7,347 bases of DNA from a virus. The stretch spans positions 1 to 7,347 of the IMG/VR virus record IMGVR_UViG_3300028584_000654, one strand, 5' to 3'. How positions within the stretch are numbered: position 1 is the first letter of the stretch; each line of letters opens with the position of its first letter. The notes beneath the pieces are model-generated. The model was given only the letters and a program-made list of their open reading frames with translations. It was not told where the DNA came from and searched no databases. Shown piece after piece: positions 3,591-4,880 of this stretch. A program made the position numbers and the translations under genes.

Positions 3591-3605
3591 TGGCAGTCCT
3601 TGTTT

Positions 3606-3689
3606 GCATGTGTGCAAATAACATTGGTGGCAAATCTACACATGCACACATGCGAACGTCAATACAGATAACGTGCACACAAGTATTAT
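3606..3689. promoter_or_regulatory. Divergent control region between rep and the plus-strand regulator: three TGCACACA-type repeats and a candidate rep promoter
   Basis: An 11-bp perfect inverted repeat is formed by GCATGTGTGCA (3606-3616) and TGCACACATGC (3643-3653). A third copy of TGCACACA lies at 3674-3681, 31 bp from the second. The candidate minus-strand promoter has -35 TTGACG (plus coordinates 3657-3662), an 18-nt spacer and -10 TAGATT (3633-3638). The middle repeat sits in that spacer. A weaker plus-strand candidate has AATACA (3661-3666), a 17-nt spacer and TATTAT (3684-3689). Confidence 0.55.
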
Positions 3690-4011: not shown

Positions 4012-4194
4012 ATGACCGGATGGATGCTTGCGCTGTTCCTAGAAGGGAGCAAAGCGCCAGACATAACCGCAGGGCCGTACAAAACCGAACAGCAGTGCTT
4101 TATGGCTGGTGATCTCATGAAAGCAGCAGACAAGGCTGCTAGGCAGCTAGAGCAGCTGTACACAATCTCATGCACCGAGCAGCAGGAAGACTAG
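4012..4194 (+). CDS. Hypothetical small protein, 60 aa, co-oriented with the regulator
   Basis: ATG start with only a weak AGG/AAGAAG upstream. The composition looks protein-like to me and it contains two Cys. It is followed by the plus-strand terminator candidate. I recognise no family. Confidence 0.4.
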   Translation: MTGWMLALFLEGSKAPDITAGPYKTEQQCFMAGDLMKAADKAARQLEQLYTISCTEQQED

Positions 4195-4480: not shown

Positions 4481-4738
4481 TCAACCGTTAAGCAAATCAC
4501 CCTGGGCAACGTGATCAAGAAGCGCTGAAGCCGAATCGCGAGCACGATCAATAACCTGCTGCTGAACGCGGCAGCGCTCCTTGATCTGGCCAATCTCACG
4601 CTCAAGACGAGCAATCATGTCCAGCTGATCGAGATAGGAAAGATAGGCGGCAGCAACAGCCTTGGCGCCAGTGCGCTGGCCGGTGACTTCCTTGAGGCGC
4701 TCAACGTAGTCATCGTCAGCTTGAAACTTGATAAGCAT
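4481..4738 (-). CDS. Small RHH-like protein with coiled-coil-like C-terminal half (ORF B), 85 aa
   Basis: I prefer ATG 4738 because the AAGGA SD lies 9 nt upstream. The ORF-track ATG at 4747 has zero spacing to that SD. MLIKFQADDDYVERLKEVTGQRTGAKAVAAAYLSYL fits a strand-helix-helix pattern. The C-terminal part LDQLDMIARLEREIGQIKERCRVQQQVIDRARD is heptad-like. Confidence 0.65.
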   Translation of the reverse strand: MLIKFQADDDYVERLKEVTGQRTGAKAVAAAYLSYLDQLDMIARLEREIGQIKERCRVQQQVIDRARDSASALLDHVAQGDLLNG

Positions 4739-4880
4739 AGGTACCATTCCTTTTCACCAGGTGAGATCGAGGGAGAGTGAAACGGTACCATTTATTAAAA
4801 ATAACGCAATGATTTTTGGTACCAAAAAAGAGCAAAAAATCTCCTGCAGGATCTGCTGCAGCAAAATTAATGGTACCTAT
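4737..4880. promoter_or_regulatory. AT-rich intergenic spacer with four GGTACC-core palindromes (operator-like array) and a tentative ORF B promoter
   Basis: GGTACC occurs at 4740-4745, 4784-4789, 4818-4823 and 4872-4877. The outer sites form a 12-bp inverted repeat: ATAGGTACCATT (4737-4748) and AATGGTACCTAT (4869-4880). Site 3 is a 16-bp perfect palindrome, TTTTTGGTACCAAAAA (4813-4828). The tentative minus-strand promoter has -35 TTGGTA (4820-4825), a 16-nt spacer and -10 TATTTT (4798-4803). Confidence 0.6.
4834..4861 (-). terminator. Candidate weak intrinsic terminator or attenuator after ORF A
   Basis: On the minus-strand RNA, CUGCAG (4856-4861) pairs with CUGCAG (4844-4849) across a 6-nt loop. 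GAGA and then U6 follow (4834-4839), with a second T6 at 4824-4829. A longer imperfect stem is also possible (4843-4867 with 4893-4916). Confidence 0.4.

What the first reader, a model, noticed from the sequence alone, without database searches (positions are those of the whole stretch)
4737..4880. All four GGTACC palindromes found in the genome are packed into 140 bp between ORF A and ORF B
Seen in the sequence: GGTACC occurs at 4740, 4784, 4818 and 4872, and a by-eye scan found no other copy in the 7,092-bp unit. Chance would give roughly 1-2 copies in the whole genome. The shared flanks suggest a consensus close to ATGGTACCAT. Sites 1 and 4 form a perfect 12-bp inverted pair. Site 3 is a 16-bp perfect palindrome flanked by A/T tracts. 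The centre-to-centre spacings are 44, 34 and 54 bp, close to whole numbers of helical turns. Site 1 overlaps the ORF B start codon and SD, site 3 overlaps the tentative -35, and site 4 abuts the ORF A stop codon. Inference: this is a cooperative operator array for a dimeric (RHH-type) regulator that autoregulates ORF B, possibly with DNA looping. An alternative is an iteron-like element of a replication origin in the AT-rich stretch.
Basis: partly seen in the sequence, partly recalled or inferred. Interest (0 to 1): 0.66.

Follow-up and report, generated by a model that had tools for sequence, protein, structure and literature searches.

The report
Phage repressor's four-site operator array
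The four clustered GGTACC sites are real and are most likely the binding sites of the small DNA-binding protein encoded just downstream (ORF B), a regulatory module shared by many Pseudomonas-type filamentous phages and not yet described.

Summary
GGTACC occurs exactly four times in the window, at 4740, 4784, 4818 and 4872, far more clustered than chance allows. The window is a circular 7,092-bp filamentous phage with its genes on the minus strand.

The array is a conserved module. 28 non-redundant relatives carry four GGTACC sites in the same layout directly upstream of an ORF B homologue that is 39-85% identical. The layout is two 44-bp two-site units joined by a linker of about 22 or 34 bp, so all spacings are roughly multiples of 11 bp.

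The reverse test also holds. Of 43 viral contigs matching the array pattern, 39 have an ORF B-family gene next to it.

When the N-terminal strand of the protein changes, the repeated 8-mer changes too, always within TGnnnnCA. MLIKF goes with GGTACC, IMIRHA with TGTTAGCA, VLIRDF with TGATATCA and LTLRDV with TGCTATCA.

The array does not track Rep, ORF A or the attP site.

ORF B is modelled as a strand-helix-long-helix protein, which is ribbon-helix-helix-like. A sigma-70 promoter with an extended -10 appears to overlap the third site in gene order.

Best reading: a cooperative auto-repressor operator. Binding has not been tested, and any role beyond autoregulation is unknown.

The parts
4872..4877 (-). 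GGTACC lies 2 nt after the ORF A stop codon. It is the first site of the upstream two-site unit.
   Evidence: A homologous first site is present in 28 non-redundant arrays.
4844..4861 (-). CTGCAGcagatcCTGCAG hairpin followed by a T-run, inside the a-b spacer. It looks like a terminator for the zot-ORF A transcript. This 48-nt spacer is 10 nt longer than the usual 38 nt.
   Evidence: Terminator-like hit. Related CTGCAG/GATC motifs recur in the spacers of other loci.
4813..4828 (.). GGTACC at 4818-4823 lies within the 16-bp perfect palindrome TTTTTGGTACCAAAAA.
4804..4809 (-). Candidate -35 hexamer TTGCGT of the ORF B promoter, in the b-c linker.
   Evidence: In most arrays with a long linker (8 of 11 read), a TTG-containing hexamer sits 15-17 nt upstream of TAnnAT in site c. 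The scan tool calls the equivalent promoters in L041, L043 and L020. It did not call this one in the window, so this is an inference.
4782..4789 (-). GGTACC is at 4784-4789. On the minus strand, TGG-TACCGT reads as a TG-extended -10 element (TACCGT, 4787-4782).
   Evidence: At site c, T at -1 and T at +2 and +3 are 100% conserved in 28 arrays. Promoter alignment; tool-called promoters in relatives.
4754..4764 (.). 11-bp palindrome TCACCAGGTGA (ACCWGGT element) in the c-d spacer, centred 16.5 bp from site d. Its function is unexplained.
   Evidence: CCWGG is present in 27 of 28 c-d spacers, mostly 16.5 bp from a site centre. Seen across motif classes.
4740..4745 (-). GGTACC lies between the Shine-Dalgarno sequence (AAGGAA, 4752-4747) and the ORF B start codon (4738-4736).
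   Evidence: In relatives the last site lies 1-17 nt before the ATG.
4481..4738 (-). ORF B, 85 aa (phrog_8031, function unknown). It is the predicted ribbon-helix-helix-like, coiled-coil DNA-binding protein and the proposed binder of the array.
4880..5110 (-). ORF A (phrog_13909), the gene upstream of the array. It is an optional neighbour and not required for the array.
   Evidence: Arrays occur without ORF A in L001, L005, L021, L024 and L027.

Best explanation
The four GGTACC sites are the operator array of the protein encoded immediately downstream (ORF B, 85 aa).

**The protein.** ORF B is modelled as an N-terminal strand, a short helix and a roughly 55-residue helix. This is the shape of a ribbon-helix-helix protein with a coiled-coil extension.

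**The sites.** Inferred: a dimer reads each 8-bp site (T-GGTACC-A) with its paired N-terminal strands. The sites come as two 44-bp two-site units joined by a linker. All spacings are about n x 11 bp, so bound dimers would lie on one face of the DNA. They could then interact through the long helices.

**The promoter.** Inferred: the ORF B promoter has its -35 in the b-c linker (TTGCGT, 4809-4804). Its TG-extended -10 lies inside site c (TGG-TACCGT, 4789-4782). Site d sits between the ribosome-binding site and the ATG. Occupancy would therefore shut off ORF B's own transcription, and possibly read-through from the upstream zot-ORF A operon.

**Shown here:**
- the array;
- its conservation;
- its two-way association with the ORF B family;
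- motif and N-terminus covariation;
- independence from Rep, ORF A and attP.

**Inferred:**
- binding;
- oligomeric state;
- promoter position;
- repression.

What ORF B does for the phage beyond autoregulation is not known.
For: 1. Four GGTACC sites in the same layout lie directly upstream of ORF B homologues of 39-85% identity in many phages and prophages. 28 non-redundant arrays have an a-b spacer of 38 nt in 26 of 28, and linkers of 26-30 or 16-17 nt.
2. Reverse test: 43 IMG/VR stretches match GGTACC-N38-GGTACC-N14-32-GGTACC-N38-GGTACC. 39 have an ORF B-family gene (N-terminus ML[IV]K) right after the array. The other 4 are unrelated GGTACC tandem repeats.
3. Covariation of the repeated 8-mer with the N-terminal strand:
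   - IMIRHA with TGTTAGCA in 3 independent loci;
   - VLIRDF with TGATATCA;
   - LTLRDV with TGCTATCA in L043 and L004;
   - LTIRD/N with TGATTGCA or TGCTATCA.
   The 44-bp unit architecture is retained in the inovirus loci.
4. Non-palindromic motifs occur in direct or inverted orientation. That fits protein binding and does not fit hairpins.
5. The AF2 model of ORF B has pLDDT 88.5, with residues 1-8 extended, helix 9-19 and helix 24-78. The top Foldseek PDB hits, though not significant, are RHH proteins such as NikR, VapB, FitA and 1y9b. 5 of 79 family members hit Pfam FitA-like_RHH, best E 1.4e-4.
6. Promoter: TTGnnn lies 15-17 nt upstream of TG-n-TAnnAT at site c. The flanks of site c are 100% conserved. 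The scan tool calls such promoters in L041, L043 and L020.
7. There are no other GGTACC sites in the genome, so the array is the protein's only perfect target.
Against: - No experiment shows binding or repression.
- The window's ORF B has no significant Pfam or NCBIfam match.
- Foldseek matches to RHH structures all have E > 1.
- hhalign against single FitA and Mnt sequences gave nothing.
- The promoter scan did not call a promoter in the window's own array. The window's hexamers are weak (TTGCGT and TACCGT).
- The sites are far apart (22-55 bp), unlike the contiguous repeats of classical RHH arrays.
- The conserved ACCWGGT and CTGCAG palindromes in the spacers are not explained by this model.
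- A pure autoregulator with no other target has no obvious benefit to the phage, so part of the function is missing.
Confidence: 0.75

Rival explanations
1. The array with ORF B is a cis-acting architectural complex whose main job is not autoregulation. Two possibilities are a centromere-like or maintenance site for the replicative form, and an accessory complex that steers XerCD recombination at the adjacent attP. In this reading the conserved C-terminal tip of ORF B recruits a partner. This reading can coexist with autorepression.
For: - In many relatives site a starts only 6-10 nt after the XerC-type arm of a CTX-like inverted dif pair.
- The C-terminal motif ALLDHVAQGDLL is among the most conserved stretches of the protein in the closer relatives and is kept across a change of DNA specificity (L019/L029).
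- The layout of N-terminal DNA-binding fold, helical region and conserved tail, with an array in front of its own gene, resembles ParR/parC (my own knowledge).
- The array is the only GGTACC target in the genome.
- Extra 44-bp units occur away from the promoter, in L020 after ORF B and in L027 inside zot.
Against: - No partition NTPase gene is present in the 7-kb genome.
- In the window, L020, L023 and L026, ORF A separates attP from the array.
- Family members also head ordinary operons outside inoviruses (L044, L046). That looks like a plain transcription factor.
Confidence: 0.15
2. The palindromes matter in the single-stranded viral DNA. Sites a:d and b:c would pair to build a branched hairpin that serves as the packaging signal or the minus-strand origin, as in the intergenic region of Ff phages.
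For: - The viral-sense strand folds with a:d and b:c paired. Energies are -21.1 kcal/mol (z = -3.4) for the window and -31 kcal/mol (z = -4.4) for L001.
- The region follows the last morphogenesis gene, as the Ff packaging signal does (my own knowledge).
- The spacers are enriched in 6-bp palindromes, 73 observed against 29 +/- 5 in shuffles.
Against: - The hexamer is invariant in all four sites across phages whose ORF B is only 39-85% identical, while the flanks drift. A stem would tolerate compensatory changes.
- In the non-palindromic classes the sites are mostly direct repeats (L043 all four; L019 and L030 five of six), which cannot pair.
- The motif tracks the N-terminus of a protein.
- Any four copies of a palindrome fold well, so the z-scores are not independent evidence.
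Confidence: 0.06
3. The sites are iterons of the rolling-circle replication origin, bound by the phage Rep (G2P-family) protein.
For: - The region is AT-rich and non-coding, between the morphogenesis and replication modules.
- In CTX-type phages the plus-strand origin lies in this general area (my own knowledge).
Against: - The same GGTACC array occurs with at least three Rep lineages that share no detectable similarity: the W/L001 group, the L020/L002 group and the L024/L027 group.
- L001 and L002 have near-identical arrays but Reps from different lineages.
- The window Rep's 62%-identical relative in L019 goes with TGTTAGCA instead.
Confidence: 0.03

Closest known systems
Omega (ω) repressor of inc18 plasmids such as pSM19035, and its heptad arrays (from my own knowledge)
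   Same: A small ribbon-helix-helix dimer reads a short (7-8 bp) site. The sites are repeated several times in front of promoters, including its own. They work in direct or inverted orientation, and binding is cooperative.
   Different: Omega heptads are contiguous with a 7-bp period. Here the sites are 22-55 bp apart in n x 11-bp phase and are organised as 44-bp two-site units. Omega lacks the 55-residue C-terminal helix and the conserved tip. No sequence similarity was detected.
ParR/parC of type II partition systems such as R1 and pB171 (from my own knowledge)
   Same: An N-terminal RHH is followed by a helical region and a conserved C-terminal tail. An array of repeats flanks the promoter of its own operon. 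The repeat period is 11 bp, and the protein is both autoregulator and architectural complex.
   Different: No ParM-like partner gene is present. ParR iterons are contiguous. Family membership is not supported by any profile hit.
Phage P22 Mnt and Arc (from my own knowledge)
   Same: Phage-encoded RHH repressors whose operators overlap promoters. Mnt tetramerises through a C-terminal coiled coil.
   Different: P22 has single operators with adjacent half-sites, not four dispersed sites. hhalign of the family against the Mnt sequence gave nothing.
CopG of rolling-circle plasmid pMV158 (from my own knowledge)
   Same: A small RHH autorepressor in a rolling-circle replicon. In some relatives (L024, L027) the ORF B homologue lies upstream of Rep on the same strand, as copG does with repB.
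   Different: In the window, Rep has its own divergent 69-aa regulator and ORF B is convergent with that operon. CopG binds one pseudosymmetric element.
RstR and the ig-2 operators of CTXφ (from my own knowledge)
   Same: A regulator-plus-operator cassette in a XerCD-integrating filamentous phage, which exists in several specificity variants.
   Different: RstR is a helix-turn-helix protein divergent from rstA. The module here is a different protein fold at a different genome position, next to attP and downstream of zot.

Membership tests
Ribbon-helix-helix (RHH) DNA-binding superfamily (ORF B) | N-terminal beta-strand followed by two helices, with a G-x-x-[ST] turn capping helix 2 | tested here: met
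   The AF2 model has residues 1-8 extended, helix 9-19, a turn at 20-23 and a helix from 24. The family alignment conserves ML[IV]K..., LK..TG..T[AG]SKA.
Ribbon-helix-helix (RHH) DNA-binding superfamily (ORF B) | Significant match to a curated RHH profile | tested here: inconclusive
   The window protein has no Pfam or NCBIfam RHH hit. 5 of 79 relatives hit FitA-like_RHH (best E 1.4e-4) and 2 hit PSK_trans_fac, all as single-protein E-values that I did not compare with the families' curated score cut-offs.
Ribbon-helix-helix (RHH) DNA-binding superfamily (ORF B) | Structural similarity to solved RHH proteins | tested here: inconclusive
   The best Foldseek PDB hits are RHH proteins (1y9b, NikR, VapB11, FitA), but all have E > 1. 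This was a monomer model. BFVD gave no annotated match.
Ribbon-helix-helix (RHH) DNA-binding superfamily (ORF B) | Homodimer whose paired strands enter the major groove | not testable with these tools
   Only monomer prediction is available. This needs a multimer or DNA-complex model, or an experiment.
Autoregulatory operator array (omega / CopG / Arc-Mnt type) | Repeated short sites next to the regulator's own gene that match the regulator's specificity | tested here: met
   The evidence is indirect. There is a two-way association, and the 8-mer covaries with the N-terminal strand in six classes.
Autoregulatory operator array (omega / CopG / Arc-Mnt type) | Sites overlap the promoter or ribosome-binding region of the regulated gene | tested here: inconclusive
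   The predicted extended -10 lies in site c, and site d lies between SD and ATG. The tool calls such promoters in L041, L043 and L020 but not in the window. No transcription start site has been mapped.
Autoregulatory operator array (omega / CopG / Arc-Mnt type) | Contiguous tandem repeats (7-11 bp period) | tested here: not met
   Sites are 22-55 bp apart, in 44-bp pairs.
Type II partition centromere (ParR/parC) | Adjacent partner NTPase (ParM or ParA) gene | tested here: not met
   No such gene is present in the 7,092-bp genome. All ORFs of 89 aa or more on the coding strand are accounted for as inovirus genes or as ORF A and ORF B.
Rep iterons / rolling-circle origin | The repeat sequence covaries with the initiator protein | tested here: not met
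   The same array occurs with at least three unrelated Rep lineages, and a close Rep relative goes with a different motif.
Ff-type ssDNA hairpin signal (packaging signal or minus-strand origin) | Pairing potential is conserved, with sequence free to covary | tested here: not met
   The hexamer is invariant. The non-palindromic classes are mostly direct repeats that cannot pair. Good folding of the palindromic class is expected from any repeated palindrome.

The most novel reading that the evidence does not exclude
ORF B bound to its phased 44-bp units may build a defined nucleoprotein complex next to the XerCD attachment site, acting as a cis-acting machine and not merely as an autorepressor. 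It might control integration or excision at dif. It might instead tether or segregate the replicative form. The invariant C-terminal tip (ALLDHVAQGDLL) would recruit a conserved host or phage partner. The kink-prone ACCWGGT and CTGCAG elements in the spacers would allow a tight DNA wrap. This would be a previously unrecognised accessory system of CTX-type filamentous phages.
Probability: 0.18. Interest if true: 0.75.

Novelty: new variant of a known kind. Interest (0 to 1): 0.5.

Why it matters
- It gives a testable function, sequence-specific DNA binding and autoregulation, to a widespread protein family with no annotation. The family has 177 clusters at 50% identity and belongs to PHROG 8031, 'unknown function'. 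It occurs in XerCD-integrating filamentous phages of Pseudomonas and relatives, including P. aeruginosa prophages from cystic fibrosis isolates.
- The family offers a natural set of matched protein-strand and 8-mer pairs (TGnnnnCA). This amounts to a small recognition code that could be tested by strand swaps and might yield orthogonal repressors.
- The strict 44-bp two-site unit, the n x 11-bp phasing and the conserved spacer palindromes point to a higher-order complex that has not been described.
- The module's position next to attP raises the question of whether it affects lysogeny or maintenance of these phages.

Tried and rejected
- Megablast of the whole window against GenBank phages found no match. 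Relatives were found only through proteins.
- A PDB sequence search with the family profile gave only coiled-coil noise.
- NCBIfam gave nothing.
- Foldseek against viral models gave no annotated match.
- Rfam found no RNA family in the region.
I used single class representatives instead.
- A genome-contig scan gave only 2 loci.
- Literature searches found no description of the array or of ORF B. They covered the accession of the related phage, 'filamentous phage' with RHH, inovirus with XerCD and repeats, and RHH with GGTACC. The paper describing Pf 17897 does not mention the array. PMBT54's omega-like ORF13 is not detectably similar to ORF B (tblastn with ORF B against the GenBank phage collection found only 17897 and NEU2023; I did not check that PMBT54 is in that collection).
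- I considered and rejected these explanations:
  - Rep iterons;
  - an ssDNA hairpin signal;
  - binding by ORF A, which is absent from many array-bearing loci;
  - a dif-like site inside the b-c linker (the real attP is at 5104-5190);
  - chance.
- My first circular-statistics run measured phase concentration rather than zero phase. It peaked near 10.5 bp with a constant offset. The n x 11 reading rests on the raw distances 22-24, 33-36, 44 and 54-55.

Full report
**What the window is.** The 7,347 bases are a 7,092-bp circular unit with a 255-nt terminal overlap. The genes lie on the minus strand and are those of a filamentous phage:
- a G2P-type Rep (3617-2436);
- a gene-V-type ssDNA-binding protein (2148-1858);
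- a major coat protein (1381-1157);
- a DUF2523 minor protein (6770-6471);
- a Zot/pI homologue (6467-5193).

Three small proteins fall in PHROG families of unknown function: ORF A (phrog_13909), ORF B (phrog_8031) and a 69-aa regulator on the plus strand (phrog_5642). No near-identical phage is in GenBank.

**The observation.** GGTACC occurs exactly four times, at 4740, 4784, 4818 and 4872. Shuffles give a mean of 0.78, and 1 of 200 reaches four. All four lie within 138 bp of an AT-rich gap between ORF A and ORF B. The spacings of 44, 34 and 54 bp are as described. So are the 12-bp inverted pair formed by sites 1 and 4 and the 16-bp palindrome at site 3. I name the sites a to d in gene direction, so a = 4872, b = 4818, c = 4784 and d = 4740.

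**The array is a conserved module attached to ORF B.**
- tblastn with ORF B found two Pseudomonas aeruginosa filamentous phages, 17897 and NEU2023, at 49% identity. Both carry four GGTACC sites directly upstream of the homologue, spaced 44/22/44.
- Phages found through ORF A alone carry no GGTACC array.
- IMG/VR, GTDB genomes and metagenome contigs gave many more ORF B homologues at 39-85% identity. Wherever upstream sequence was available they had the same four-site array. Two (L008, L024) have one site degenerated to GGTACT, and one prophage (L022) has the array displaced about 190 nt upstream.
- After collapsing near-identical copies there are 28 distinct arrays. The a-b spacer is 38 nt in 26 of them. 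The linker is 26-30 nt in 25 and 16-17 nt in 3.
- The reverse test also holds. The pattern GGTACC-N38-GGTACC-N14-32-GGTACC-N38-GGTACC matches 43 viral contigs, where I estimate far fewer than one by chance. 39 of them have an ORF B-family gene beginning ML[IV]K within 1-17 nt of the last site. The other four are unrelated GGTACC tandem repeats.

**The motif follows the N-terminal strand of the protein.** A profile search finds 177 clusters of this roughly 85-aa family. Members with a different N-terminus have a different repeated 8-mer in the same place and, in the inovirus loci, in the same architecture:

| N-terminal strand | Repeated 8-mer | Loci |
|---|---|---|
| ML[IV]K | (T)GGTACC(A) | 28 non-redundant arrays |
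| IMIRHA | TGTTAGCA | L019, L029, L030 |
| VLIRDF | TGATATCA | L041 |
| LTLRDV | TGCTATCA | L043, L004 |
| LTIRD/N | TGATTGCA / TGCTATCA | L044, L046 |

All the motifs fit TGnnnnCA. A protein only about 45% identical to ORF B that keeps MLIK still has GGTACC (L031). The non-palindromic motifs occur in direct or inverted orientation without a fixed pattern.

**What the array does not follow.** The same GGTACC array occurs with at least three Rep lineages that share no detectable similarity. L001 and L002 have nearly the same array but Reps of different lineages. The window Rep's 62%-identical relative (L019) goes with TGTTAGCA. ORF A is present upstream in some loci and absent in others, where a CTX-type inverted dif pair or zot abuts the array. 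The neighbouring repressor type also differs: a cI-like HTH protein in L026 and L043, and a 69-aa protein here.

**The protein.** AlphaFold2 with 17 homologues gives pLDDT 88.5. Residues 1-8 are extended, followed by helix 9-19, a turn, and one helix from 24 to 78. The conserved TG..T[AG]SKA turn is typical of the loop and N-cap of helix 2 in ribbon-helix-helix proteins (from my own knowledge). Foldseek finds nothing significant, but its best PDB hits are RHH proteins. 5 of 79 relatives touch Pfam FitA-like_RHH at E down to 1.4e-4. I therefore treat ORF B as RHH-like with a coiled-coil extension. Membership of the superfamily is likely but not proven. The C-terminal tip ALLDHVAQGDLL is strongly conserved among the closer relatives and is kept across a change of DNA specificity (L019/L029).

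**Architecture and promoter.**
- Centre-to-centre distances across 15 arrays are 22-24, 33-36, 41-44 and 54-55 bp, that is about n x 11 bp.
- The window's 54-bp a-b distance is the usual 44 bp plus one helical turn. The extra sequence contains a terminator-like hairpin and T-run.
- In most long-linker arrays (8 of 11 read), a TTG-containing hexamer lies 15-17 nt upstream of TAnnAT inside site c, and that element is preceded by TG.
- At site c, the T before the hexamer and the TT two and three bases after it are 100% conserved.
- The scan tool calls TTGACC-16-TATCAT and TTGAAT-16-TATCAT, both with TG, in L041 and L043. It also calls a promoter at the same place in L020.
- In the window the equivalent elements are TTGCGT (4809-4804) and TGG-TACCGT (4789-4782). 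They are too weak for the scan to call.
- Site d lies between AAGGAA and the ATG at 4738.
- Bound protein would thus cover the -10 element and the translation start region, which is autorepression.

**Rivals.**
- The viral strand folds with a:d and b:c paired, with z = -3.4 and -4.4. Any repeated palindrome would do this, and the direct-repeat classes cannot fold this way, so an ssDNA signal is unlikely.
- Rep iterons are contradicted.
- An architectural role is not excluded. Evidence for it: site a starts 6-10 nt after attP in many relatives. Extra 44-bp units occur after ORF B in L020 and inside zot in L027. The C-terminal tip looks like a partner-binding motif.
- Evidence against an architectural role: family members also head ordinary operons outside inoviruses.

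**Unexplained.** The 38-nt spacers are enriched in 6-bp palindromes, 73 against 29 +/- 5 in shuffles. They carry CCWGG, usually as ACCWGGT, in 27 of 28 c-d spacers and 22 of 28 a-b spacers, mostly 16.5 bp from a site centre and in either orientation of the unit. These elements persist across motif classes. Their CA/TG steps might allow sharp bending, but that is speculation.

**Comparison and novelty.** The module works like known RHH autoregulator arrays (omega, CopG, Mnt/Arc, ParR/parC; from my own knowledge). It differs in four ways: dispersed sites, strict 44-bp two-site units, a long C-terminal helix, and a family-wide switch of 8-mer specificity. No paper in the searchable library describes it. 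I rate it a new variant of a known kind, of moderate interest.

Noticed in passing
window 5104-5131 (+) and 5163-5190 (-): Two dif-like XerC/XerD sites lie in inverted orientation between the zot stop codon and ORF A: TTCGCATAATgggaccTACATTAAAT and TTCGCATAATcaaggacTTACGTTCAAT. This is a CTX-type attP that would fold in ssDNA. The likely ORF A start codon (5110-5108) lies inside one XerC arm. Related loci have the same arrangement directly in front of the array.
   Followed up: partly
window 4754-4764 and the spacers of all related arrays (e.g. L001 150-160, L020 3974-3984): ACCWGGT palindromes, often 11 bp with covarying outer bases, are centred about 16.5 bp from a site. The spacers also carry CTGCAG, GATC, CTCGAG and GCCGGC palindromes. 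6-bp palindromes are 2.5-fold enriched in the 38-nt spacers. No explanation was found.
   Followed up: partly
window 4880-5110 (-): The ORF A N-terminus (MRTPIDLPSRLVDLAKLYAPGRDPSDAVSYVIEDY) also reads like strand-helix-turn-helix, followed by a coiled coil. ORF A may therefore be a second RHH-like protein. It precedes the array in L020, L023, L026, L019, L029 and L004 but is absent in many others.
   Followed up: no
window 3602-3616 / 3643-3657: A 15-nt inverted repeat at 93% complementarity (GTTTGCATGTGTGCA / TGCACACATGCGAAC) lies in the divergent region between Rep and the 69-aa regulator, beside a promoter-like hit (3662-3633, minus strand). It is a candidate operator for that regulator.
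   Followed up: no
L020 4255-4304; L027 3440-3489: Extra single 44-bp GGTACC units with the usual spacer content lie outside the main array. One is right after the ORF B stop codon in L020. The other is inside the 3' part of zot in L027.
   Followed up: partly
L024 3994-4191, L027 4254-4385, L041 4324-4509, L043 1887-2081, L044 4346-4543: In several relatives the ORF B homologue is followed on the same strand, often overlapping its stop codon, by a small hydrophobic, membrane-like ORF. The window has no such ORF; its 43-aa ORF at 4484-4353 is not hydrophobic.
   Followed up: partly
IMGVR_UViG_2912953232_000005 (L031, L015, L017): One 34.5-kb contig carries three tandem filamentous prophages. 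Their ORF B homologues are of two types, about 45% identical to each other, and both are preceded by GGTACC arrays. L031 has seven sites. Cross-regulation between co-resident phages is therefore possible.
   Followed up: no
L076 1860-2110; L058 2380-2620; L049/L082: Other dense GGTACC clusters have no ORF B-family gene nearby: a cluster of more than ten sites in L076, AGGTACCGC repeats in L058, and a 22-bp tandem repeat in L049 and L082. These are unrelated uses of the same hexamer.
   Followed up: no
window 4012-4194 (+): A 60-aa ORF lies downstream of the 69-aa regulator. By eye it shares a G-x-x-T-[QE]-x-x-C-x-x-AG motif with the small ORFs that follow the repressor in L001 (721-918) and L023 (914-1111), but it gave no BLAST hit to either at E <= 0.01; only L001 and L023 matched each other. 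If related, it would suggest a conserved two-gene regulator operon convergent with ORF B.
   Followed up: no
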